64,000 nucleotides of DNA. It comes from Sphagnum compactum (taxonomy: Eukaryota). How positions within the stretch are numbered: position 1 is the stretch's first letter; each line of letters starts with the position of its first letter. Below, one piece after another: positions 11,901 through 40,700 of the stretch. The stretch covers positions 4,154,001 through 4,218,000 of the forward strand of contig OZ234493.1 of assembly GCA_965153455.1 (NCBI GenBank), in the 5' to 3' direction. Under the pieces are notes generated by a model that saw only the letters and a list, made by a program, of their open reading frames with translations, did no database searches and was not told the origin of the DNA. Both the position numbers and the translations under genes were made by a program.

Positions 11901-13755
11901 GACAAGTACCTTGGTTCGACCGTCATCAACACCAATGTACAAGGGGGCCTTCTTAAATGACACACGTGCCAGATCCTCCACCTGCACCTCTCAATAGAGC
12001 AAAAATATTAGGACAGTTTGACTTTGATGTAATGCTAATAAATACCAATTTCTGGGTTCACTGCTCTCTATTTTCAATTGGTACAACGGATCACAAACGT
12101 GACAAACACACCTTTGTGGTCTGGGTGGCTGAGAAGAGAACAGTCTGACGTTCCTGCAATAGCACCACAAATGTATTAATTCCATTTTCATATGTTCTCA
12201 GACATGCTTTTCAATTACAGAGAACTAGCACTGACTAGAGTTGCAAAAAATGACCATGTTCAACAGCACCCTCCAGATTTAGGGAAGTGTGTCTCTATCC
12301 AAAAGCAGCAGATCAAGAACCTTAGGTAAGAGCCTGATAATTTGCTTCATCTCCTCCTCAAATCCTATCTCCAAGATACGATCGGCTTCATCAATGACCA
12401 GGCACTGCACAAAACCTCAGGGAAAATATATATACTAGGATGTGAATATCTCTTCCAAGAGAAAAATGCAGTGCAGAACCTTTTTTCTCTCCTCAGTTTT
12501 TTTCCTGGCTGGGCCAACAATGATCACTGGTGATCACAGATTTCATAGAATGTTATGCACCACCTGCCTTAAGTCTACACAGAGCTGTATAAGGCACACA
12601 CAACAATCAAAGAAATTTGCCTTGGAAAGATGATGTGAAGCTTTGAGGAGGACTTGAAGATGACCAACCTTCAGATTCTTGAAAAGAAAACCCTTCGTGT
12701 TTTGAAGGTGATCCAAGAGGCGCCCCGGAGTAGCTACTAGAAAATTCACTCCTTTGGCCAGTTTCTCAGCCTCTGTTCGCCTGTTGGCTCCCCCCATAAC
12801 AATGCCATGTGTTTGCTTATGGTACTTCAGAATATCTCTCGCAACACCATATATCTGCAACCACATCATCTTACAACATGTTAAATGGAGATCTGTGGAA
12901 TGAACAAGAGATTCAATGAAAGCACCAAAACCCACCATATGTCTCAAAAGCAGCAGCAGCAGATGGAAATAACTGGAAGATGACATATCATGAGTTTCAA
13001 GCAAGGAAGGAAGAAGCTCACCTGCATGGCAAGCTCTCGTGTGGGTGAAATGATAAGGACGCCAGTACCATTGCGAGGCATGAAGTGTGCATGGAAAAGC
13101 AGCTCTGCCGCTGGTACCACAAAAGCTAGGGTTTTACCAGACCCTGTTCTTGCAGCTCCCAACACATCACGTCCTGTCAACAGCTGAGGAATTGACCTTG
13201 CCTGGATCTGCAGAAACAAAAACAACTCCCATCATGCGCTCTGCAAATCAGGCCTAAGGAGGGGTGGGTGTCAATACAATCCCTCCCTCCCTAGCTAGGG
13301 TTTCTTTCTTTCACCTGACGGCTCTTTGCAAAAGCGAAACCCTAATCAGCAGCTCTAGCTGCCAAAAATTCTTCTTCCATTACCTCAGTCATGTGAGTGA
13401 ATCCAGTGTCGCGAATTGCATTCATCGTGGGCTCAGAAACAGGCAAAGTCTCGAAAGCCGTGTTGCTCATGATCCCTCCCACTTGTGCAGTCCCACCATC
13501 TAGCATCTCCATCTCAAACTTCATCTTCTTCCTCTTCTTGTTCTTCTTCTCTTCTCCAGCAGCAGCAGGAGACTCCTCTTCTCCTTGTTCTTCTTCCACC
13601 TCAGAGACCGGCACAGCCTCCACAACGTCCGTATTGTTCGTCACATCACTGACTTGGCCCGCGTCTCCATCCGAGATCTCAGCCTCGACCTTCATCTGCT
13701 TCCGCTTCTTGCCACCAGCAGCAACCATCTTCTTCTGCGACATTGTCGACTTCAT
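8983..13755 (-). CDS. HAS1: DEAD-box ATP-dependent RNA helicase, HAS1/DDX18 family (Arabidopsis RH27/RH51-like), ribosome biogenesis
   Basis: 13 exons, all with GT-AG introns: 13755-13384, 13207-13022, 12854-12669, 12404-12321, 12153-12112, 11981-11910, 11170-11072, 10842-10642, 10397-10359, 10243-10139, 9897-9829, 9529-9404, 9186-8983. Motifs: Q motif (GFTHMTEIQ), [46 protein letters not shown], and the Has1-type C-terminus ([24 protein letters not shown]). Alternative start at 13743. Confidence 0.95.
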
Positions 13756-14009
13756 CCTCCCTTCCTTCCTTCCTTCCTTCCTGTGTGCTTGCTTGCAACT
13801 AACCCAAATTGCTGAACAAAGGATCAGAAAACGAGCACATTCTCTGCCAGTTCACTTTGCACTTCAAAACAGCATTGCAAGCATCCTCGATTCTCGCACA
13901 AATCTCCCAACAATCTCGCGGAGCTCTGAAGGAAATCCGAGGCAAGCCGCGAAGCTCGTGAAGCCGAAGAGCTTCGGACAGGGCTTCCCTCTCTCCCTCC
14001 CTTCAGCGT

Positions 14010-28294: not shown

Positions 28295-31200
28295 ATGGAG
28301 GCGCCTTCTTCGTTGTTGCAGCGACATGGGTACACTCTTCTCATGCATTCGTCGCAGCAGCAGCAGCAGCAGCAGCAGCTCCACTCTCAGCCCCCGCCGC
28401 CGCCGCAGCAGCAGCAACTACAGTACCAGCAACAACAACAACAACAAGTGCAACCTGATAGTCACGGCTTTACCAGCAGTGGTGGTGCAGTAGCTGCTGT
28501 CAGCTTGAGTGGCCAAAAACGCGACAACTCTGGCGTACCTCTTCTTCCTCAACCTTCTCAAGGTATGTAAAACCCTCTCTGTGTTTTTTTAGGGTTTAGG
28601 GTTTAGGGTACTTTGCTGAAGGATGTTGTTGTTGAGAGAAAGAAAACATGGGTTGGTTTTCAAACTTGAACCCCTCCATGCAGTCTCTCTTTGTAACGTT
28701 TTAGTGCCTTATCTTGCAATGGAATCTGCTGGGAAGAAAAGTGGTGAAACTGTTTTAGGGTTTAGGGTTTGTCTGATGAGGATCTCTGGCACAATTTCCT
28801 TTCTTTCACTCTCGGATTTCCCCTTTTTTTTCATGCTTGCTCATTTGTGTCGCTGTTTTGAACATTGCCACATCTGAAACTGGTCATGGTCTCAGTTGTA
28901 TTCAGCTCGACCTAAACCTGTAAATTCGGATGTTTGCTATTGTTCAAAACTGCTGCTGAATTTTTCCTGCAATTTTTAGGATTAGGGTTGGTGTCTTCCC
29001 CTCTTCTTCTTTCTGATTTGCTCTGGTATGTTGCTAGACGGAAATTCTCTGCAAAACCCTATGAGGTCATCTCTCCATTGTTATTATTATTATAATGGAA
29101 GATTCTATAGTTTGCTGGCCACTTATATCAGTGAAAAGGCTGGTGGGAGTACAGTACATGATGTGGGGCATAATTTATGTATGTGTGGAGTGTGGCTGGA
29201 TGCTGATCAAATTTGTTTCAAATTTCTCTGCTTGTCTGATGTGAAATTTCACGACATGGACAAAGTTGGTTCTCACAACCTCATTGTTTACTTCAGACTC
29301 TGCAGATGGAGTGACATTTGTTAAACTCTTTGTTGGTTCTGTACCACGAACCATTTCTGAAGAAGAGGTACAGAACCCTTCCAATTGTTGCTATTCAGAT
29401 GAGCCAATTTATATTTTTAGAGAAGCATGTCAAACAAGGTGCAGCAGGGTCATTCATCATTGTATTCTGCTGCCCTGCTATGAACCTTTACAGAGTTCAA
29501 CTTGAAGAGGAGGAACACTGTGTTTGCAGTGCATTTGAATTACCATGGGACTGTTGGTACATGGTTAAACTTAAAGAAAAGTATTGTTTAGGGTTTAGGG
29601 TTTTCGCAAGACCTTCTGATGGTGTCATGTCAGAAACTTTTGCAGGTGTGGCCTATGTTTGCAGAGCATGGGAATGTTCTGGAAGTAGCAATCATCAAGG
29701 ACAAGCGCACTGGGACCCAACAAGGTATGTCTTTTGCCGTTCAAGTAATTCTGGATAGACTTGTATATTTTTGGATCTATTTTTTTGTTTCAAATTCTTT
29801 TTTCAGACATCTTGCTGAGTATGCAAAGATGAGCAGGCCTGGAAGAATGTAGGCATATGCTAAATATTAGTTCTTATTTACAGCTAGTCTGTAATTTTTC
29901 ACTTAGTGGGCAAACTAAGTGCTGACCAGGGTGTTGGTGGGGGATATGTTCGCTAGGACCAAGGCATGTATCATTAGGATGGATTAGACTTCAGTTTGGA
30001 CTGCAGTGTAGGCCAGTTTGTTTGTTTTAGACTTCAGATGAGAGAGCCCTAGTCTAGTAAAGATTCTCCAGGCTTTGCATATCAATAATACTCCATATAA
30101 ATGGCAACAATGCCCATGTTGAGTCCCAATCCCCTCAAATGTGTATGTGCAGTTGAAAACTATCATGTGTTTGGTTGGTGTTTGTTGAGTGGGTGTGGCT
30201 CATTTAAGTGTGAACCGGATAACCCCTTTTTTGCCTTTTATGCCTGAGTAATAGGATGTTTGAATCAAACTTGTTTGAATGTTGGCAAAAAGTTATTGTC
30301 TTGTGCAATAGCAAAGTCTCCTGGTGATTGTCATGTGATGTTGGCCATTATGATTGTGAATGGCATCAGACTTATTCTCATGACAACTCATGTAGTCATG
30401 TATGATGCAATCAATGTCCTTCATTCCAATTTAGGGGTGTGGCACTACTCCCCACAGTACATATGTTTAATTTAACACCTGAAAAGAGACACATGGTGAT
30501 TGCAGCTGCCTAGATTTATCCTTAGTTTTGATCTGGTGGTAGAAGTACATGGGAAAAAAGATCTGGAGACTGTTGCTGGGAAAAATGTTGTGGCCCTGGG
30601 CCCAAGATCCATGAAATGGTGCTGGGTCCTGTACTATTCACACCAACCTCTATTGAGTGAGTATTGCCAGTGTGTTGTGAGGCTTGAGTATGTCCAATCT
30701 CACACATAGTTCCTCCAATTTGGAATACTGATATCTTTGAATGGATACCCAAATGTTTGAGGCTCTCCACATTGCCATTATCCTGCATGTTTCTGCAATT
30801 TTCTACTCACATCAGTATTGGATGCAGACTCATTTGTCTGTGTGAGCTATGTGTGGGAATCTTGATTGGTTTATTCCAGAATCAGTCTACGGTTATGTTT
30901 GTATTGACTTGTCTCAGTGAATTAGCTAGATTTTGACCACTATCATCTGTATCGATTCTCATACAGCTTATGGTTGTAAGCTTCATTCCTGTGTTTGTGA
31001 TTTTGATTTTTTTGGTTGGTTTCTTTGTAGTGGATGTGCACCTTGAAGGAAATGTGGATGCCCATGTTTGATGCTATAATTTGTGAATTTTCTTGAGTTG
31101 GGAATTCTTGTCATTGTCACTACATAATGTTTGTCAGTCAGCCAATTAATGTGTGAGCTCCTGGAAAGCAATTTTGCAAAAACTGTTCCTTCATGTACTG

Positions 31201-34200
31201 GATCCTAAACCCTAAACCCTCATAATCTCACCAGATTGTCACAAACACCCAAGTTTGTGGGTCATCCAGTTCATATATCTGTTTTGGTAGTTACAGAGCT
31301 GCAAACATGATTGTCAGTCAATTTTCAGATTTTCAGCTGTGAAACAGATCTTTTAAGTAATGAAAAACTCAATGCAATTGACAGGCAATTGTTTCTGCTA
31401 TTTCAGTGTGCATTCAGAAGTGGGTCTTCATAATTTTTATGTTCCTATAGCTGGAGGTGGGAACTGCTTGCATGTCTTTGAGAATTAGGCTCTACTTCAT
31501 GATTCAAAAGTGTTCATTTTGCAGGTTGTTGTTTCATCAAGTACAGCACAGTTGAGGAGGCAGAGAGGGCCATAAGGGCTCTTAACAATCAACGCACTCT
31601 ACCAGGGGTATGTTGTCTTAGGTTTTAGGATTTAGAGTGATTTGGACAAAGCTGTTTGTCATTGGATATCTGTTAGTTCTTTGTGACCAGGTTCAACATC
31701 ATACTGCTACAACCTCATGTTTCAGAAATGTCCCTACAATCAATGATGAGCCTCCAGGTCCAGAAACATCAATGGCTATGGTACAACGTTAGACTTGAGC
31801 ATTGTGAGTTCAACTCATAGTGCTGCTTTGTACTTCTTCCCAGGGCACGGGTCCAGTACAAGTCCGTTATGCCGATGGAGAGCGTGACCGTCTTGGTAGT
31901 GGTCCTGCATTACCTTTCTGTAAGAAAAAGGTTTTGATTGTGACATCAATATTGCTATTTGTATAAACTTCCGCTTTCAATAGACATAAACCTGCATTGA
32001 ACATTGGCTGTAATAGCTTGTGTTGTGCAGAACTGTTTTACTATGTGGGAAGCTCAGGCTTAAGAGTCAAAGGTCTGCATGAGTAACTTGGTCAAGTAAG
32101 AAATTCTTTTTTTGCATTATGCGGTCATGTGGGTCTTGGATTTACATGGATCCTGTCAATTTTGACTTGTGGTAGGTGCTGTGGAGCATAAATTGTTTGT
32201 GGGTTCTCTCAACAAGCAGGCTTTAGAAAAAGAAATAGAAGAGGTAAAGCTCAAACCCACTATTGCAGGAGCATCAAGTGCTTGCTTGACCCTTTTCTCT
32301 GTAGCGACAGAGTTATTTGCTAGGTAATGCATTGGCATGCCTATTAGCCTTTCATTGGGTCCCATTTCCTGCCTTCCACTGGGTCCTAATTTGACTACAG
32401 AAGTGAGCCCTATCAATTTTCTGAAACCGAAAGCCAATAAAAACGAATGACTGTGACAGATATGTTCATGTGTGGTTGCAGATTTTTTCTCCATATGGAC
32501 GAGTGGATGATGTATATATCATGCGTGATGAGCAGAAGCAGAGTCGAGGTCTGTACTTGTGCCCATTTCTAGCTTTCAGAATCTTGATTGCAAAATTTCC
32601 AAATCAGTTGAAAATGGGTTTGCTTTATTCAAGATGATTTTGTTTGCATGATGGTTTTGTTCTAGTCTTCAAGCTGGGATTTGTCTCTGAAATAGTGTGT
32701 TGGAAAGAGATTCCTGGGGGGATTTGTGAAGGGGGTTCTATGCCTGCTTTGTTGTAGGTGGAGAGCAGAAGTTACTGTACTCAAAGTTCTGTGACCAATG
32801 TTACTGGCAAGGCAGAGCTAGATCCATCCATTTTGACTTTATCTGGAGATGATTGCAGGTTGTGCCTTTATCAAGTACCCACAAAGGGAGATGGCACAAG
32901 CAGCAATTAATGCACTGAATGGCAATTACACAATGCCTGTAAGTTTTAGACAATGTTCTGAAATGTTTTCTTTAGCCTGTGCTTTCCATGAGCTATTATT
33001 GAACTCTGATTTTTATATTAGAAATAAACATGAAGTGTCCAGGATGTGTAAGTAGGTCCTTTAGCAATGTGTCACTCTCTGTTGGTATTAGGCCAGTCCG
33101 AAGAATGTGCTAACTCTGGGAACCCCCTCTTATTCCTGTACTCAGGGTTGTGATCAGCCGTTGGCTGTACGATTTGCAGATCCCAAGAGACCCAAGGGGG
33201 TTGATGCCAGGTGTGTCCTAAATCGTATCTGTGTTCTCCTTTTCGGGTAATTGGGTAGTCAGGGATGGCATTGAATTTCTAGTTCCGTCTGGGTATGATT
33301 ATGAGTTTCTAGTTTCCATCTGGTGATGGAATGAAAGTTAAAGGGAGTGTGTGTGATTCATACTTGGATGGCAGAGTTGGTGGTCCTGGTGTTGGGGGCC
33401 CAGGCTTCAGTCCTGGACCGGGACAAGTGACAGGAGAACTGAGGTGTGTGGTCCAAAGTGAAACTGGCAGGGTATCTCCTCATTCTAGGTCACTAGCCTT
33501 GCAATCATAAAGCACACCGAGATATTCAATTCTACAGCTTTTCTGTGTTTTGGAATAGGACTATGCAGCAACCGCAGATGGGATACTTGGCTGCCCAAGG
33601 TCCACCAATGGGGTGGAGACCAATGAGTGGGCCAGGTGTTGGACTACCTCAACCTCAAGCAGGGCCATCCCCATATGGAGCACTTGTGGGACCGAGAGGA
33701 GGAGGCTCTGTTATGGGCGTGGTTACACAAACTGTACGTTCCCGAATCTTCAACAAGTCAGTGTGTGCATGCATCTTGTGAATTCAGATGGGTTTGTTTG
33801 TTCAACCAAGAGCCTTTTACAAGTCTGTTGTGACCATATTGTGCTTGACTGTGCAATTTGAACCAGGGATATTGTGAGGAAAGAATTCGTTCCCATTCAA
33901 GTTTGTTTTCTCATGTTGAGAGACAGAATCTAGGGTTCACACTTGATGGGTTCATGAGGTGTTGTAAGTAAAGCTTTTGATTTATGCAGGGTGGTGTGAT
34001 GGTAGGGCCTCCTACTGTTATGATGAATGGCCATCTCCTCCCCCAAAGTGTTCCAGTACAAATGGCTGCTCCAGGAATGCTGCTACCTCAGCAACAGGTA
34101 GGTGGCTGTGCTACTAGACAAATGTGCTGTACTTCTGTATGGTCTTCCTTCAGTCTGTGGGCTTTACCCTAGGTTTCGTGCTCATGGACCCACACCTATA

Positions 34201-37200
34201 GTTGTGTCTCTGCTTCCTGTATGTGTTGCAAATCTTCTGTGTTATGTTATTAGACCTCAGAGATTGTGTGCTAGTGTGGTGGTGGTAGCTATTGCTATGT
34301 TCATTCCTGAACACCTTTCATGGTCTGGAAACAAGTCAGGGATATTACCAGCTCCCTGAACAACAGCTGCAGCAACAACCGTATGCAGTCCAGCTACCTC
34401 AGCAGCAACAACTGCAACCGCAGCAGCAGCAACAGCAGACCTATGTTCAGATCCCCACTTCCCATCAGCAACAACCTCAGGCTTATGGCCAGATGCAGGT
34501 TTTTTTTCTTTCCTAATTTTGTGAATGGCTTTGAATTCTTGCTACCCAGTGTTTTTGCCCGAATGATCAGATGCTACATCCACCACTTGTTTTTGTTGTT
34601 ATTATTGGTGTCAAAGTCATGAAGAGTTGTGGTCTTCTGCTGTTGCCATCTCTTGTGAAATCATCAGGAGTTCTTGTGGAAACAGAGCATGAGAGGTCAC
34701 TTCTAATTTATTGGAGTTGAATATTCCAGTTCAAGAAATGTTTTTGATATCTATGTGATTGCTTGATGGGTTTTTTCAATTTTGTCAGGTCCCTTCATCA
34801 CATCCACAAGTGCAATCACAGCAGCAGCAGCAGCAGCAAGTGGTCATGCAATTTCAGCAGCAGCAGCAGCAACAGGCTTCTTTGCAGGCTGTGCCTCAAC
34901 AAATGGTGCACACTCAATCCTTCCAGCCTAGCCAGGCCCAATCTCAGCCCCAGCCAGTGCAGCAGGTTCTTAAAATCACTTTGCACTTTTACACTCTTCA
35001 TGAAAACAATTGCATAGTACTTGCTGTGTTTAGTGAGTGAGAGGAATCATTCTGTTCTTGAGAATTGTATTACCAGTCAGCAGAATTCTCAGCTGCTTAC
35101 TGTACCCATATCTGCCTTGTTTTGGGTGGTAAAAAGTGCTGAAGTTGAATGCCAGAAGAGAACCGTAAACCGTAAACCCATTACATGTCAGTCCTAGCAT
35201 CTAGTAGGAATTGTTCAAAAGCAGATGTGCAAGCTGATTGACGGGCCACAAAGGTCCTTAGATACTATGCTATGCTACCGATGACTTACATGAACGTCAG
35301 TGGTATTTGCAGATATATTATCAGATCCCTGTTGTCCAACCTGTGCAGCAGCAGCAGGTACTTTTTTTACCAGGTCTTTCTATGTCGATGTCTAAGACTG
35401 TTATTCAATATGCTGCCTGATCATATGTTGATTTCATCTCTATGAAACTGAATAAAATGTCAGTCCAATTTTGGCACTTGTATTCTCTTGTGCAGCCAAC
35501 TTGGGTACTTCCTGTCCAGCAGCCACAAACAGTTCTGGCTGCTGTGACTGCTCGTCCATCACCTGCCAAACCAGCAAACTGTGACTGGACTGAACATACT
35601 TCACCTGAGGGCTACAAGTACTATTACAATAATGCCACTGGGGAGAGTAAGGTAAGTACCACTTCATTATTTGGTTGTCATTTGTCTCCAGAAAGGAAGA
35701 AAGTGTTGGAAAAAATTTCACCACTGCATTCCCCATCCATCTTTTCATCTTCTTAACATCTTGAAGAGGATCACCAATCTTGATTTTTAGTTTTTTTTTT
35801 CATGATGTATGGCAGTGGGAGAAGCCAGAGGAGCTAATTGCTGCTGAGCAACAGGAAAGGCAAATCCCAATTGCTGCAGTCACTGTAAGTTGAGCCATCG
35901 CTTGCAGCAGGTCAAGATTGTGGCAAGAGTTTGTTATCTGTTGATGACGTGGTCAGTGAGTGACTTTTTGGTGCTCCGTGTGAGATATTCAGAGAACGGC
36001 ATTTGCACATTCCATTTTGTTGTAGTGGGTAGTTGTACCCATGTGAGTCTAAAAGAGACATGACTGAGCATTAGAGTGGGTAATCCCTGTATGTATCAAA
36101 AGCTAATGTATCAAAGTTGTTTTGTCAACTTCACAGCAACAATATTCTGGATCTGCTGTTGGGTCACAGCATCCAGTCCAGGTACTTACATTGCCTTCAC
36201 TTGTAACTTGAAGTTTTGTTGTAGTCTTTTTATCCTGCTACAGCATCTAACAATGCGTGCTGTGGTTCCTCTAGGTATTGAATTACAGTTGGCCACAATC
36301 CAGTAATGGGCTTGTTGAACAGCCTAGGCAACAGGTACAATTCAAGTTTTGGGTGTGTCAGAATTCTTGCTGTTTTGATTCATGGATGTACATTGTTCCC
36401 TAATTGTAATTTCCTGCCTCTTGAGACTACTTTGCATCACCAAATGCAATCGTTTTCCATGTGGCCAAACAAAGACTGTCTCGTGAGATTGGCTTGGTTG
36501 AACCCATTTGTCAAAAATGAGAGTCGGTGCTGGGGATCTATCACCAAAATTGGGTAAATAACTTCCAGCTTCTGAGCCCTGTTTGAAAATTACAACTAGC
36601 TGAGACAGGACTTCTGAAGACCTAAAAGACCGCTTTTCATGCTCATGGACTCCACTTTTCTCAATGTGGGGGGTCTGATGGAGCTCTATGACATTGAACA
36701 GCATATGTTGAATACCCTCCACCACATGCAATACTTGTTAGAGGAGCATTGCCTGATACAGCAGTGGAGGGCAGTCTGTCTGCCTTGCTCATGCCGAGTG
36801 TGGTAAATTGCAGGGACCCCCTGGTGCCAACTTGTTTGTGTTTCGAATTCCTGATGACTTCACAGATGAGAACTTGAAAGAAACTTTTGCCCCTTTTGGT
36901 AATCTTCTTCTTTGATCCTCTTGCTGTGAGTGAGGGGACACTGGTGACTGTGGTGTTAAAGAAGTGGTCAAAAAAAAACATCACCACTTTGACTGAGCCT
37001 GCACCATCACAAGTATCTTAAGGCAACCCCCTGAACATTTCTTGAGAAGTCAGGTCTCTCTCTCTCCAGGCAGGCAGTGACTGACTCCCCTTCGCCGCCC
37101 ACCTGATGAGATATGATTGAGCCATATCCACATCTGCCCCCACAGAACGTCTCTGATAAAGAGCAACATGGGTGTAAACGTTTGAGTAACTTAGGTCCAA

Positions 37201-37713
37201 GTCTTCTTGTGCTGCAGGTAATGTCATCAATGCAAGAGTGGGTGTTGAAAGGGAAAGTGGCCGGAACAGGGGCTTTGGGTAAGTTGTTCGATTTTAACTA
37301 TCAACAATTTGACATATGTAACTTGGGTCTAGGGTCATGTTCCATTGTTGCTTGCTGTTTCTGACACTAATTCTTTGCTGGTTTCAAGGTTTGTGAGCTA
37401 TGACAGTGCAGCATCTGCAGAATCTGCCATACAAGGTCTTAATAATGTTCCTGTAGGAGGTCGGAGGCTCAAGGTACAACATTAACCAGCTCACTCTTTG
37501 TCCCTTTCACTTGTGTTCCTAGAAAACGGGAATATAAGTATTCTGTGGAATTGTAAGTTGGGATGCATGGTCTTACTCAAGAAAATTAAAAGGACTGAGC
37601 TAAAGGCACTGACTGTTATTGGATGTTGTGTCTGGAATTTGTGGCAGGTTGAGAGGAAACGAGGGGAAGAAAATGGAATTCAACAGGCTTATCAACAGCA
37701 GCAGGCTTACTGA
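28295..37713 (+). CDS. FCA: FCA-like RNA-binding protein: RRM1-RRM2, Q-rich region, WW domain and an additional CELF/Bruno-type RRM3
   Basis: 23 exons, GT-AG introns, frame-consistent: 28295-28562, 29297-29367, 29646-29724, 31525-31607, 31844-31895, 32176-32243, 32482-32548, 32859-32938, 33146-33210, 33375-33443, 33559-33733, 33990-34097, 34340-34498, 34789-34965, 35313-35357, 35496-35651, 35816-35884, 36137-36181, 36275-36334, 36814-36898, 37218-37278, 37389-37473, 37648-37713. FCA hallmarks: VKLFVGSVPRT, IKDKRTGTQQGCCFIKY, KLFVGSLNKQA, GCDQPLAVRFADPKRPK, and WW domain [28 protein letters not shown]. RRM3: GPPGANLFV...RGFGFVSYD...GGRRLKVE. The small Q-rich exons are less certain. Confidence 0.92.
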
Positions 37714-40700
37714 GCTCTGTAGCCTCTCTCTAGCATAGCTGTAGTCTAGAATATTGTTCCTTCAACTGAATTGGTTGGCTGGCCACTATCTGAGAAAGTT
37801 TCATGTGCCTTGACAGAACATTGAATTGGTTTTTGGTTTTGGATTGCAAACTTGTAGTTGGCTAATGGCTTCACTTAATTGTGGTTGAGGGCATCAGGTG
37901 ACATTATAGAGGAAAATGGCAAAACTTAGTTATTTGTTAAGCTCTCAGAGATTAAAATTCAAAGAAATGTTGAGACACTGATCAAATTTTTTCAAAGTCA
38001 ACTTTAGCAAAGTTGTCATGCTCTGTTCTATGTGCTTTTTTGGACTCCTTCCCACACTACTCACTGATTGATAAACTCGGGTATTTTGTCTACATTCCAA
38101 ACACTGGGTTGCCATAGGAGTCTGATACTAGGACTCTTTGCTCTGCAGAGGTTGAGCACAAGACCTGTGCAGGTGTCTTCTCCATTGTGGGTTCTCTAGA
38201 TGTGATGCTATTCCATACACCAACCAAACGTGTGTGAATAGTTGGTGATGAATAGTTGGCAATGACTGTGTTCTTAACTGATAGGAACTCTAATACAACC
38301 TTTTCTATTTATCGTGCAGGTGGAGGAGCTGGGCAAGAGATGGCAATTTGACTCAACTCCTGACGTCATTGCCGACCCGATTTATCATTGAAGAAATTGT
38401 ATCAAAGAACATCAAACTCCACAAGCACCACACCCATGGCTCCGGTATCCGCCATGCACTTGTTTCATCAGCCTTCATAGTAAGTTATCCATCATATGCA
38501 CACATAGTAACTGTTAATGTCACTCACAGATTGGGTCAAGTTTTTGAGTCAAAATTTTTATCTTGAAATCCTACACCAATGTGTAGTGTCTTCTTCCCTT
38601 CCCTATGGGTAAAACGAATATAATACTTATAGATTTTAGAATAACTTTCTTGACAAAGAAAGAGATGTTAAAAATGCCAGTTTTTTCTTTTGCAAACTTC
38701 AGTTGAAATGTTGTCTTGTGGAAAATTTTAATGTTGTGTATAATGTTGAGGATATTAACACTTGTCATAAATGTCATACAACAGATTATGTGTGAAATGG
38801 CAAAGGGGCTTCACAGATTTGAGCCACAAATTTCATCCCCATTCGACTTGTTGCAGTTGATTTATGTAATTAATAGAGAACCTCTGGTCCAGTCTTGAGA
38901 TTAGTGCTTTGAATCTCTAAAACTTTCATTTTCGATCATTTTCACAAAGAAGTTAGAGCCAATCCAGTTTAAGACCACATCTTGAGATGGCTCTAATTCA
39001 ATTTTGAATTGAAACAATGTACCTGGTTAGGTTCCAATGACGATTCCAACCAAAAAATAGGAACTTGACCTATGACCTGGACCTAATATTAAGGGTTGTC
39101 ATTTGTATTTAGGTTGAACTTTGTTAACTATTGTTTTTTAGTCGAGGCCCATCTGCAATTTGTAGTTCTTATACTTTCACCTTAATAGGTGTTTCATCTA
39201 TAAGTATATGTCTAGATTTATTGTGATAGATTTATCTATAGATTTATAGTTATACCTTATCTTCCAACATTATTATAGTTTCATTCATAAATTTTGTAAT
39301 TGAATATTGGCCAAATGTCCTATGGTTGGACGTACATTAACTAACTTTATGGTTACATCTATACCAACAAATTATATAATTTTTGTAGTCGTATTTATTA
39401 TGTATAATGGAATTGTTTCCTCAGATAGACTATAAATTCTAATTGAAAAAAAATTCAAGCTTCATAACAAACATCATATAGATTCTTTTTCATTTGTAAT
39501 CTTGTTTTGGAAATCATATCACCATAACACTTCAAGTTGCTTTCCATTAGTACCTATATTTTTTGTACTAGTTATGGTTTTGATTGTGCCATTTCCCTAG
39601 ATAATAACCATGTTATTATCATAGTCATGGGTCACTTTTGCATCTTTTAACGAATGTCAACCTAATAACATAGAATAACTAGAGTTTATCACATTGTTCT
39701 ATAACAAAATGAACATAGTTATATAAAAAATTGTGTTAACATTTTCATCATTCTTTACACAAGTTTGCTTTTACTTTTCACTTATTTCTTAACTGATTTT
39801 TATTTTTTTTTCCAAAATTGAATATAAATTTGAGATCTGGATATGAAAACCAATTGTTAGCACATTTGTGAATACCACCTTGTAAGATAAGTGACTTGGT
39901 TAAATTATTTTTTTAAATTGAAACCCTAATCGGTTTTCATGAATATATTTTTAAAGAACCAAAAGTTTGTCATCTCATTTGTTGGGAAGAACCGGCAATT
40001 CTCATAAAAAAAGAAAGAATTGGCCAACATTGGCATTTTCTTCAAAACTAAAACTTTCAAAAAGGTTTTCTCTTCATTAAATTTGGTTGGTTTTGAATCA
40101 TAAATCCTCGTATTAGCATATGAAATTCATAAGGTATTGGTCAACGGTCAACAATACCTTACGACAATTGTAAGGTATTTTTTTTCAATTCTTTATTATG
40201 ATTTTTCTTTTCATATAAAAGAAAATATTTTTACAATTTCAAATTTATTTTAAAAAGGTCTTACACACTAAAATTCAAAAATAAAACAAGACAAGACAAA
40301 GACAAGTCAATACAAAACCAAAAACAATGACAAACTCAAATGATGACAATAATTCAATTATTAAAAAAAACTCAAAAAATATGACAATGAAAAATCAACA
40401 CAAGAAAAAAAATCACGGTAGTTCAATTTGTGAATATTGAAGTATGCAAATTGTAAATCACAAGTCCATCAAGCTAAAATTAAGTCTCAATTAATCAAAG
40501 CCTAAGTCCACCATAAAAAAAATGTTGAAGTTCATATGGAAAGAAGTAATGTCTTTACAATGCAATGTAGCAACCAATTGCCTCCACAAAATCCACAATT
40601 GTCGTCAACTTTGGTGTTGAAGCAACATTAAAAGTGAAATCCCATAGCAAGCATGAACAAAAACTAACTATGTTTCAACATAAGTACTGATAGATGCACA

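What the first reader, a model, noticed from the sequence alone, without database searches (positions are those of the whole stretch)
36275..37396. Dual-frame exon: skipping one 85-nt exon turns RRM3 into an angiosperm-FCA-like C-terminus
Seen: exon 20 (36814-36898) is 85 nt, so skipping it shifts the frame. Splicing exon 19 (VLNYSWPQSSNGLVEQPRQQ) directly to exon 21 (37218-37278) changes its reading from GNVINARVGVERESGRNRGF (RRM3) to VMSSMQEWVLKGKVAGTGALGL-stop (TGA at 37394-37396). Recalled from memory, not verified: angiosperm FCA proteins end approximately ..R.QQ-GLQAAQEWMWKNKPAG (Arabidopsis ..RTQQSRQSPQELMWKNKA), which lines up in register at QEW..K.K.AG. Inference: the angiosperm FCA tail may be a frameshifted relic of the RRM3 exon, and this locus may switch between a 3-RRM CELF-like form and a 2-RRM FCA-like form by cassette splicing. 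The skip stop lies 77 nt before the last junction, so it could instead trigger NMD.
Basis: partly seen in the sequence, partly recalled or inferred. Interest (0 to 1): 0.85.

Follow-up and report, generated by a model that had tools for sequence, protein, structure and literature searches.

The report
Moss FCA exon read two ways
In this peat-moss gene for the RNA-binding protein FCA, leaving out one 85-base exon shifts the reading frame so that part of a third RNA-binding domain is re-read as the short tail that ends FCA in ferns and seed plants, which suggests how flowering-plant FCA came to have only two such domains.

Summary
The window holds a Sphagnum FCA orthologue (28295-37713, + strand) with two RRMs, a WW domain and a CELF-type third RRM. 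Exon 20 (36814-36898) is 85 nt. Skipping it reads exon 21 (37218-37278) in another frame and stops at TGA 37394-37396. PolyA RNA reads of the same species show the skip junction (3 reads, against 5 for inclusion). Skip isoforms are annotated in S. magellanicum, S. fallax and both Physcomitrium paralogues. The alternate-frame peptide is the best match in the whole window to a matrix built only from seed-plant FCA tails (15.8 bits, next 0.1, of 53,351 sites). Only 41-46 of 200,000 synonymous recodings of the RRM3 peptide match as well. Ferns and seed plants have the tail and no RRM3. Mosses, liverworts and Chara have RRM3. So fern and seed-plant FCA most likely is the fixed skip isoform. Open points: whether the moss skip mRNA is translated or degraded by NMD (stop 77 nt before the last junction); a Sphagnum paralogue has a stop in the alternate frame; no seed-plant DNA could be examined. 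I found no paper describing this.

The parts
28295..37713 (+). FCA orthologue, coding part: RRM1, RRM2, Q-rich region, WW domain, C-terminal RRM3
   Evidence: The 22-exon model equals P0005 at 703/703 residues. Pfam finds 3 RRM_1 stretches plus WW. Identity to seed-plant FCA over RRM1-2 is 63-82% in the listed rows, mostly 74-82%.
35313..35357 (+). 45-nt coding exon missing from the P0005 model
   Evidence: Loose ends of 6 X22 reads and of X1/X17 contigs before 35492 match 35328-35353 exactly. The peptide is present in S. magellanicum P0007.
35496..35884 (+). two exons encoding the FCA-type WW domain (35496-35651, 35816-35884)
   Evidence: Pfam WW at residues 524-551 of P0005. Word search with this exon finds FCA proteins.
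36275..36334 (+). exon 19, ends in phase 0 after QQ; homologous to the stretch before the tail in fern and seed-plant FCA
   Evidence: Junction reads.
36335..36813 (+). intron 19, partly retained in polyA RNA
   Evidence: Depth is 5.6-13 in X22, against 0 in the bins 35691-35787 and 37534-37630, which lie inside two other introns.
36784..36930 (+). block conserved with another moss: exon 20 plus about 30 nt of each flanking intron
   Evidence: blastn against L008 gives 86.4% over 147 nt. Around exons 19 and 21 the alignment stops within 5 nt of the exon ends.
36814..36898 (+). exon 20: 85-nt cassette exon, RNP2 half of RRM3; its inclusion or skipping sets the frame downstream
   Evidence: Wobble identity to moss X is 21/25 against 241/448 gene-wide, binomial p 0.0016.
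36899..37217 (+). intron 20, partly retained
   Evidence: Depth 7-11 in X22. A retention isoform is annotated in the S. fallax paralogue (P0020).
37218..37278 (+). exon 21: dual-coding; the beta2-beta3 part of RRM3 in one frame, the FCA-type C-terminal tail in the other
37389..37473 (+). exon 22: RNP1 half of RRM3; holds the skip-frame stop TGA at 37394-37396
   Evidence: Junction 37278>37389 has 10 reads.
37648..37713 (+). last coding exon of the 3-RRM form; for the skip form it lies behind a 3'-UTR intron
   Evidence: (13 junction reads).

Best explanation
The locus is the Sphagnum orthologue of FCA in its ancestral layout: RRM1, RRM2, Q-rich linker with a WW domain, and a CELF-type RRM3. 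The 85-nt exon 20 is a conserved, regulated cassette exon. When it is included, exons 20-23 encode RRM3. When it is skipped, the frame shifts by one base. Exon 21 is then read as a tail of about 22 residues, whose core (Q-E-W-x-[LW]-[KR]-G-K-x-x-G-T) is homologous to the conserved C-terminal motif of fern and seed-plant FCA. The product is a 2-RRM + WW protein of the classical FCA type. Fern and seed-plant FCA is best read as this skip isoform made permanent, with RRM3 lost. The tail would therefore have arisen by overprinting on an RRM exon no later than the common ancestor of mosses and vascular plants. Shown here: the exon arithmetic, the skip junction in RNA, annotated skip isoforms in other mosses, the statistical match of the tail, and which lineages carry RRM3 or the tail. 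Inferred: that the moss skip mRNA is translated into a working protein, that the seed-plant tail exon is the same exon at the DNA level, and that the splicing choice is regulated.
For: RNA: X22 is polyA raw reads with the same species label, 179 of 181 laid reads at least 99% identical. It shows 36334>36814 with 5 reads, 36334>37218 with 3 reads at 3 start points, and 36898>37218 with 4 reads. Annotated skip isoforms: P0397 (S. magellanicum), P0389 and P0391 (S. fallax); P0363 and P0367, and P0026, from the two P. patens paralogues. Tail match: first of 53,351 sites in the window. On related loci the matrix gives 20.0 bits for another moss (L002/L008), 26.2 for P0363 and 11.0 for L014, whereas four distant CELF-like loci give at most -1.3. 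Profile E-values run from 2.5e-9 to 1.3e-4 for the four full-length moss skip products, against 0.38 for the best of 2,111 decoys. The match is not a by-product of the RRM3 peptide. Only 41 (uniform codons) and 46 (gene codon usage) of 200,000 synonymous recodings reach 15.8 bits, and 78-81% put a stop in the alternate frame. RRM3 is ancestral. It is 82-89% identical between Sphagnum, other mosses, liverworts and Chara. Chara P0132 has 3 RRM_1 stretches plus WW. The best single-domain PDB matches are CELF2 and CELF1 RRM3, E about 5e-24. The tail without RRM3 is found in Psilotum, Adiantum, gymnosperms and angiosperms, and none of the 107 hits to the RRM3 region is a vascular-plant protein. Marks of a regulated cassette exon: wobble identity of 21/25 (p 0.0016) and conserved intron flanks, plus retention limited to introns 19 and 20.
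Against: The skip-frame stop lies 77 nt before the last exon junction. By the rule that a junction more than about 50 nt downstream of a stop triggers NMD (recalled, not tested), the mRNA would be a decay target. The Sphagnum chr-6 paralogue has a TAG in the alternate frame of exon 21 (L001, L010), and none of its 27 listed isoforms is a skip form. Wobble identity in exon 21 between the window and the other moss is 13/19, not significantly above 241/448 (p 0.15). Among window-type Sphagnum sequences, exon 21 carries 1-3 changes in 61 nt, as many as the introns, and all of them change the tail peptide. The Sphagnum tail scores 15.8 bits, whereas seed-plant tails score 32.6-62.4. Mosses are not saturated at synonymous sites (54% wobble identity), so the recoding test overstates the case against passive retention. 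Read counts are small: 3 against 5. No fern or seed-plant DNA was seen, so homology of the exon itself rests on proteins and on gene models that break after QQ.
Confidence: 0.62

Rival explanations
1. The homology is real, but in mosses the skip isoform is unproductive. Exon-20 skipping, like retention of introns 19 and 20, serves only to lower the output of the 3-RRM protein through NMD, perhaps as autoregulation. The moss alternate frame then resembles the seed-plant tail only because exon 21 has changed little since an ancestor in which the vascular-plant lineage fixed the skip form.
For: The stop is 77 nt before the last junction. The chr-6 paralogue has an alternate-frame stop. There is no significant excess of wobble conservation in exon 21 (p 0.15). 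Recent Sphagnum changes alter the tail. Retention around exon 20 is heavy. The Sphagnum tail is a degraded match at 15.8 bits, against 32.6 or more for seed-plant tails.
Against: The alternate frame is open through the motif in 4 of 5 moss genes, although 78-81% of random recodings close it. W, [KR], G-K and G-T are kept in all four. Skip reads are 3 of 8 at the exon-19 donor in steady-state polyA RNA. The P. patens chr-17-Mb paralogue has a skip form and a 524-aa out-of-frame form (P0382) but no RRM3 form among the proteins seen, yet it keeps the tail.
Confidence: 0.3
2. Chance resemblance: the alternate-frame peptide only happens to look like the FCA tail, and the two are not homologous.
Against: It is first of 53,351 sites with a 15.7-bit gap to the second. 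The same frame of the same exon matches in three further moss genes. Exon 19 upstream aligns in register, and the profile E-values run from 2.5e-9 to 1.3e-4 against 0.38 for decoys. Distant CELF-like RRM3 genes show nothing.
Confidence: 0.03
3. Reverse direction: the 2-RRM form with the tail is ancestral, and bryophytes gained RRM3 later by overprinting or exon capture.
For: None found. It is considered only because the dual coding by itself has no direction.
Against: RRM3 is a full domain spread over four exons. It is 82% identical to Chara over the aligned RRM3 stretch (86% in the best BLAST segment). The WW-plus-CELF-type-RRM3 layout also occurs in alveolates and other eukaryotes. The closest solved structures are CELF RRM3.
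Confidence: 0.02

Closest known systems
FCA (FLOWERING CONTROL LOCUS A) of Arabidopsis and other seed plants
   Same: Orthologous RRM1-RRM2 (63-82% identity in the listed rows, mostly 74-82%), an FCA-type WW domain, and Q-rich regions. The skip isoform ends in the family's C-terminal motif. The literature describes FCA as two RRMs plus a WW domain between prion-like regions (PMC11962161, passages read).
   Different: The moss gene also encodes a C-terminal CELF-type RRM3, and it reaches the FCA-type tail only by a frame-shifting exon skip. The moss tail runs five residues past G-T. Its stop sits before a further intron.
CELF/Bruno-like proteins; CELF2 (CUGBP2) exon-14 skipping, the R3-delta isoform
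   Same: Three RRMs, with RRM3 at the C-terminus. The best PDB matches of the moss RRM3 are CELF2 and CELF1 RRM3. In mouse CUGBP2 the exon encoding the first half of RRM3 is alternatively skipped, which disables RRM3 and changes activity (PMC3368720, abstract and passages read).
   Different: CUGBP2 exon 14 is 144 nt and keeps the frame, with no new stop codon (same paper). Here the exon is 85 nt and changes the frame. CELF proteins have no WW domain in the linker.
Dual-coding regions made by non-triplet alternative splicing (C. elegans tnt-3 and others; INK4a/ARF)
   Same: One nucleotide stretch is read in two frames according to a splicing choice. Such regions tend to show raised wobble conservation (PMC13247117, abstract and passages read).
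   Different: This is a plant case, about 61 nt long. One of the two readings appears to have become the only product in a large descendant clade, while the domain encoded by the other reading was lost. Wobble conservation here is not significant.
Unproductive splicing coupled to NMD in RNA-binding-protein genes (recalled general knowledge)
   Same: A frame-shifting cassette exon and retained introns in an RNA-binding-protein gene, with the stop before a downstream junction.
   Different: The 'premature' stop closes a peptide that is conserved as the normal C-terminus of the family in other plants.

Membership tests
FCA family | Two N-terminal RRMs orthologous to FCA RRM1-RRM2 | tested here: met
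   Pfam RRM_1. 502 proteins at E<=1e-20; the 120 best are moss, liverwort and seed-plant proteins, many of them named FCA by their sources.
FCA family | WW domain in the Q-rich C-terminal half | tested here: met
   Pfam WW, 36 bits against a cut-off of 26.9. The WW exon alone retrieves Amborella FCA.
FCA family | Conserved extreme C-terminal motif (Q-[ED]-W-M-W-K-x-K-x-x-G) | tested here: met
   Met only in the exon-20-skip reading: 15.8 bits, rank 1 of 53,351, profile E 1.5e-5. The annotated 3-RRM form lacks it.
FCA family | Binds FY through the WW domain and promotes proximal polyadenylation | not testable with these tools
   Function known from Arabidopsis (PMC11962161, passages).
CELF/Bruno-like family | RRM1-RRM2, divergent linker, C-terminal RRM3 | tested here: met
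   Three RRM_1 stretches. RRM3 is closest to CELF2/CELF1 RRM3, E about 5e-24.
CELF/Bruno-like family | Linker without other domains | tested here: not met
   A WW domain sits in the linker. The same layout occurs in Chara and several protists, so this is a sister architecture rather than a canonical CELF.
Dual-coding exon by non-triplet alternative splicing | Both splice forms exist as mRNA | tested here: met
   5 inclusion and 3 skip junction reads. Annotated isoforms in 3 other genomes.
Dual-coding exon by non-triplet alternative splicing | Second frame open and conserved across species | tested here: inconclusive
   The frame is open with the motif in 4 of 5 moss genes and closed in the Sphagnum chr-6 paralogue. 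Recoding test gives 41-46 of 200,000. Wobble identity is 13/19 against 241/448, p 0.15. Recent Sphagnum changes alter the tail.
Dual-coding exon by non-triplet alternative splicing | Both frames translated | not testable with these tools
   No ribosome profiling or proteome data are reachable.
NMD-coupled unproductive isoform | Stop more than about 50 nt upstream of an exon junction | tested here: met
   TGA at 37394-37396 and junction at 37473, a distance of 77 nt. The threshold itself is recalled.
NMD-coupled unproductive isoform | Isoform stabilised when NMD is blocked | not testable with these tools
   No NMD-mutant data were laid. The single read-laying run was used on wild-type runs.

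The most novel reading that the evidence does not exclude
The conserved C-terminal motif of FCA was born by overprinting. In or before the last common ancestor of mosses and vascular plants, skipping of an 85-nt exon exposed an alternate frame of an RRM3 exon, and that peptide became functional. Mosses have kept the exon dual-coding for more than 400 million years and use the cassette exon as a regulated switch between a CELF-like 3-RRM protein and an FCA-like 2-RRM protein. After gene duplication, one Sphagnum copy gave up the second frame. Ferns and seed plants froze the frame-shifted isoform and discarded RRM3, so a protein domain was lost by fixing an alternative isoform rather than by deletion of coding capacity alone.
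Probability: 0.45. Interest if true: 0.85.

Novelty: new variant of a known kind. Interest (0 to 1): 0.8.

Why it matters
FCA is a much-studied plant regulator of RNA 3'-end processing and flowering time, and it is described as a two-RRM plus WW protein. This locus indicates that the two-RRM form is derived. The ancestral gene, still present in mosses, liverworts and Chara, has a third, CELF-type RRM. The family's conserved C-terminal motif is the same DNA as part of that RRM, read in another frame.

That gives a concrete, testable route for domain loss and for the birth of a conserved peptide in a nuclear gene. It also points to the unexplored extreme C-terminus of FCA as a functional element. 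And it offers mosses, where both forms coexist and gene editing is routine, as a system to separate the roles of the 3-RRM and 2-RRM proteins. It would be one of very few old dual-coding exons documented in plants.

Tried and rejected
Tools that gave nothing:
- No whole genome is held for this window, so paralogy was settled from named cluster members instead.
- Supplements of papers were not opened.
- No collection reachable here holds fern or seed-plant DNA.

Analyses with limited results:
- Wobble conservation of exon 21 between the window and another moss gave no significant signal (13/19, p 0.15).
- Contigs of the metatranscriptome runs X1, X17 and X18 show inclusion or intron-containing forms but no skip junction. 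Contigs drop minor variants, so this says nothing either way.
- The metagenome scan used patterns inside exon 20, so it could not recover skip-form cDNAs.
- The lycophyte Diphasiastrum models end two residues after QQ and are uninformative about tail or RRM3.

Literature: seven searches found FCA homologues in mosses mentioned (PMC1939987 and PMC7673134, passages read). None mentioned a third RRM in bryophyte FCA, a frame-shifted origin of the tail, or the tail motif as text. The library covers only open-licence papers and bioRxiv.

Rejected readings: chance resemblance, and RRM3 as a bryophyte novelty (see rivals).
Full report
WHAT IS THERE. The window region 28295-37713 (+ strand) encodes a protein identical to database protein P0005, which its source names as an unnamed product of Sphagnum compactum. 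All 703 residues map onto 22 GT..AG exons. Pfam finds three RRM_1 stretches and a WW domain. Over RRM1-RRM2 the protein is 63-82% identical (mostly 74-82%) to the seed-plant proteins listed, many of which their sources name FCA. RNA reads support one more 45-nt exon at 35313-35357 that the P0005 model omits.

THE OBSERVATION. Exon 19 (36275-36334) ends in phase 0. Exon 20 (36814-36898) is 85 nt and encodes the RNP2 half of a C-terminal RRM. Exon 21 (37218-37278) is 61 nt. Exon 22 (37389-37473) holds RNP1. The last exon is 37648-37713. Joining exon 19 directly to exon 21 reads exon 21 as peptide P0003, followed by two more residues and TGA at 37394-37396. That stop lies 77 nt before the last junction.

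IS THE SKIP REAL? I laid four runs on 35400-38300. X22 is a stranded polyA RNA run kept as raw reads and carrying the same species label. About 12% of it was read, and 179 of 181 laid reads are at least 99% identical to the window.

X22 shows these junction reads:
- 36334>36814: 5 reads
- 36334>37218: 3 reads with 3 different starts
- 36898>37218: 4 reads
- 37278>37389: 10 reads
- 37473>37648: 13 reads

So about 3 of 8 spliced reads leaving exon 19 skip exon 20. The counts are small.

Introns 19 and 20 carry depth 5-13. Bins inside two other introns (35691-35787 and 37534-37630) have depth 0. Splicing around exon 20 is therefore slow or regulated. Contigs of the three other runs show no skip junction, but contigs drop minor forms.

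Public gene models agree with the reads. Skip isoforms with the same join are annotated for the orthologous chr-7 gene of S. magellanicum (P0397) and S. fallax (P0389, P0391). They are also annotated for both Physcomitrium patens paralogues (P0363 and P0367; P0026). Two further annotated forms were seen:
- P0392 skips exons 20 and 21.
- P0368 in P. patens skips all three internal RRM3 exons; in the window these sum to 85+61+85 = 231 nt, which keeps the frame.

IS THE TAIL LIKE THE SEED-PLANT TAIL? Of 103 seed-plant FCA proteins fetched, 89 had a W-[KR] anchor near the end and 14 did not; these 14 were truncated or divergent models. I dropped one spurious match. The remaining 88 gave 76 distinct 15-mers, from which I built a scoring matrix.

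Scanned over all six frames of the window, the best of 53,351 stop-free 15-mers is 37224-37268 in the skip frame, at 15.8 bits. The next is 0.1 bits. The mean is -42 and the sd 8.1. Seed-plant tails themselves score 32.6-62.4, so the Sphagnum tail is a weakened copy.

A profile of the last 45 residues of 91 fern and seed-plant FCAs was searched against the moss skip products and 2,111 window ORFs used as decoys:
- P. patens P0363: E 2.5e-9
- skip product of another moss (L002): E 3.3e-9
- the window's skip product: E 1.5e-5
- P0026: E 1.3e-4
- best decoy: E 0.38

The exon-19 peptide contributes to these scores. It aligns in register with the stretch before the tail in seed plants.

Four vascular-plant gene models stop or diverge exactly after the QQ codons (P0085, P0049, P0241, P0223). 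Several more diverge right after P-A-G. This pattern is what intron positions shared with Sphagnum would give, but it is indirect evidence.

IS THE MATCH A BY-PRODUCT OF ENCODING AN RRM? I recoded the 22-residue RRM3 peptide of exon 21 with random synonymous codons 200,000 times. With uniform codons 41 recodings reached 15.8 bits, and with the gene's own codon usage 46 did. In 78-81% of recodings a stop appeared in the other frame before the end of the motif. Four distant CELF-like RRM3 loci from the metagenome scan score at most -1.3 bits in any frame. The match therefore depends on particular codon choices in moss FCA genes.

OTHER MOSSES AT THE DNA LEVEL. A metagenome scan with an RRM3 alignment returned 17 loci. 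L002 (cDNA-like) and L008 (genomic) come from a moss whose protein is 81% identical to Ceratodon FCA. Its exon 21 in the skip frame is open, scores 20.0 bits and stops at the same place. Loci L004, L005, L014 and L015 are window-type Sphagnum and keep the frame open, with one to three residue changes in the tail.

Loci L001, L003 and L009-L013 belong to a second Sphagnum gene. S. fallax and S. magellanicum each carry both genes, on chromosomes 7 and 6, so the two are paralogues. The chr-6 copy has a TAG in the alternate frame of exon 21, and none of its 27 listed isoforms is a skip form. Overall, four of five moss genes keep the second frame and one has lost it.

SIGNS OF REGULATION AND OF SELECTION. 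Between the window and the other moss, wobble positions of identical codons agree as follows:
- gene-wide: 241 of 448 cases
- the 85-nt exon: 21 of 25 (binomial p 0.0016)
- exon 21: 13 of 19 (p 0.15)

Nucleotide similarity extends about 30 nt into both introns around the 85-nt exon only (36784-36930, 86% over 147 nt). These are the usual marks of a regulated cassette exon. They do not show extra constraint on exon 21.

Among window-type Sphagnum sequences, exon 21 has 1-3 differences in 61 nt, as many as the introns, while exons 20 and 22 have none. Each difference is silent for RRM3 and changes the tail. Recent evolution in Sphagnum therefore gives no support for constraint on the tail.

WHO HAS WHAT. 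RRM3-bearing FCA-like proteins are found in Sphagnum, Ceratodon, Physcomitrium, the liverworts Calypogeia and Riccia, and the alga Chara braunii, at 82-89% identity over RRM3. The layout of a WW domain followed by a CELF-type RRM3 also occurs in Chromera, coccidians and other protists. The closest solved single domains are CELF2 and CELF1 RRM3.

Proteins ending in the tail and lacking RRM3 are found in the ferns Psilotum and Adiantum, in conifers and Taxus, in Amborella and in other angiosperms. None of the 107 hits to the RRM3 region is a vascular-plant protein. Lycophyte models are uninformative, and hornworts were not seen.

HOW IT MOST LIKELY WORKS. The ancestral gene was a CELF-like protein with a WW domain in the linker. 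Skipping the 85-nt exon removes RNP2 and shifts the frame. RRM3 is thereby replaced by a short tail read from the next exon. This isoform existed before mosses and vascular plants diverged, and its tail acquired a function. Ferns and seed plants kept only this form.

In mosses both forms are still made as mRNA. After duplication in Sphagnum, one copy lost the second frame. The chr-17-Mb Physcomitrium copy has a skip form and a 524-aa out-of-frame form (P0382) but no RRM3 form among the proteins seen.

I put 0.62 on this full reading. I put about 0.95 on homology of the tails and about 0.9 on the skip being a genuine, conserved splicing event.

The main rival (0.3) accepts the homology but holds that the moss skip mRNA is only a decay substrate that tunes expression. 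The points in its favour are the position of the stop, the paralogue with a closed frame, the non-significant wobble signal and the recent tail changes. Because moss synonymous sites are far from saturated (54% identity), passive retention of an old sequence is more plausible than the recoding test alone suggests.

COMPARISON WITH WHAT IS KNOWN. FCA is described as two RRMs plus a WW domain between prion-like regions (PMC11962161, passages read). FCA homologues in mosses have been noted (PMC1939987 and PMC7673134, passages read). Mouse CUGBP2 skips the exon for the first half of RRM3, but that exon is 144 nt and keeps the frame (PMC3368720, abstract and passages read). Dual coding through non-triplet alternative splicing is documented in animals (PMC13247117, abstract and passages read).

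Seven literature searches found no mention of a third RRM in bryophyte FCA or of a frame-shifted origin of the tail. The library holds only open-licence papers and preprints, and supplements were closed. The isoforms themselves are already in public annotation. What appears new is what they mean.

VERDICT. This is a new variant of a known kind: a dual-coding exon set by a frame-shifting cassette exon, in which one reading was later fixed as the family's normal C-terminus. Interest 0.8.

Noticed in passing
window 35313-35357: A 45-nt coding exon is supported by RNA loose ends (6 reads in X22, contigs in X1 and X17) and is present in S. magellanicum P0007, but it is absent from the P0005 gene model.
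   Followed up: yes
L001 969-1031; L010 3359-3421: The second Sphagnum FCA paralogue (chr 6 in S. fallax and S. magellanicum) has a TAG in the alternate frame of exon 21. It is annotated with intron-20 and intron-21 retention forms but no exon-20-skip form. This may be a division of labour after duplication.
   Followed up: partly
window 36814-37473 (exons 20-22); proteins P0368, P0392: Exons 20+21+22 sum to 231 nt, so skipping all three keeps the frame. Such a form is annotated in P. patens (P0368). S. magellanicum P0392 skips exons 20 and 21 and ends four residues later. Neither junction reached the listing threshold.
   Followed up: partly
window 36335-36813 and 36899-37217: Introns 19 and 20 are strongly retained in polyA RNA (depth 5-13), while bins inside two other introns (35691-35787 and 37534-37630) have depth 0. 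The retention is local to the cassette exon.
   Followed up: partly
window 29725-31524: The intron inside RRM1 is by far the longest of the gene (1.8 kb) and is AT-rich. In Arabidopsis, FCA autoregulation uses a poly(A) site in a long early intron (recalled). Whether the moss intron does the same was not examined.
   Followed up: no
window about 12543-13851, minus strand: ORF pieces with a lysine/glutamate-rich N-terminal region and a helicase-like stretch suggest a DEAD-box RNA helicase gene on the other strand. The label is from recall of the motif; no search was run.
   Followed up: no
proteins P0137, P0146, P0150, P0168, P0183, P0191, P0211: A WW domain followed by a CELF-type RRM3 occurs in Chromera, coccidians and unnamed protist transcripts. 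The FCA-like layout may therefore be much older than plants.
   Followed up: partly
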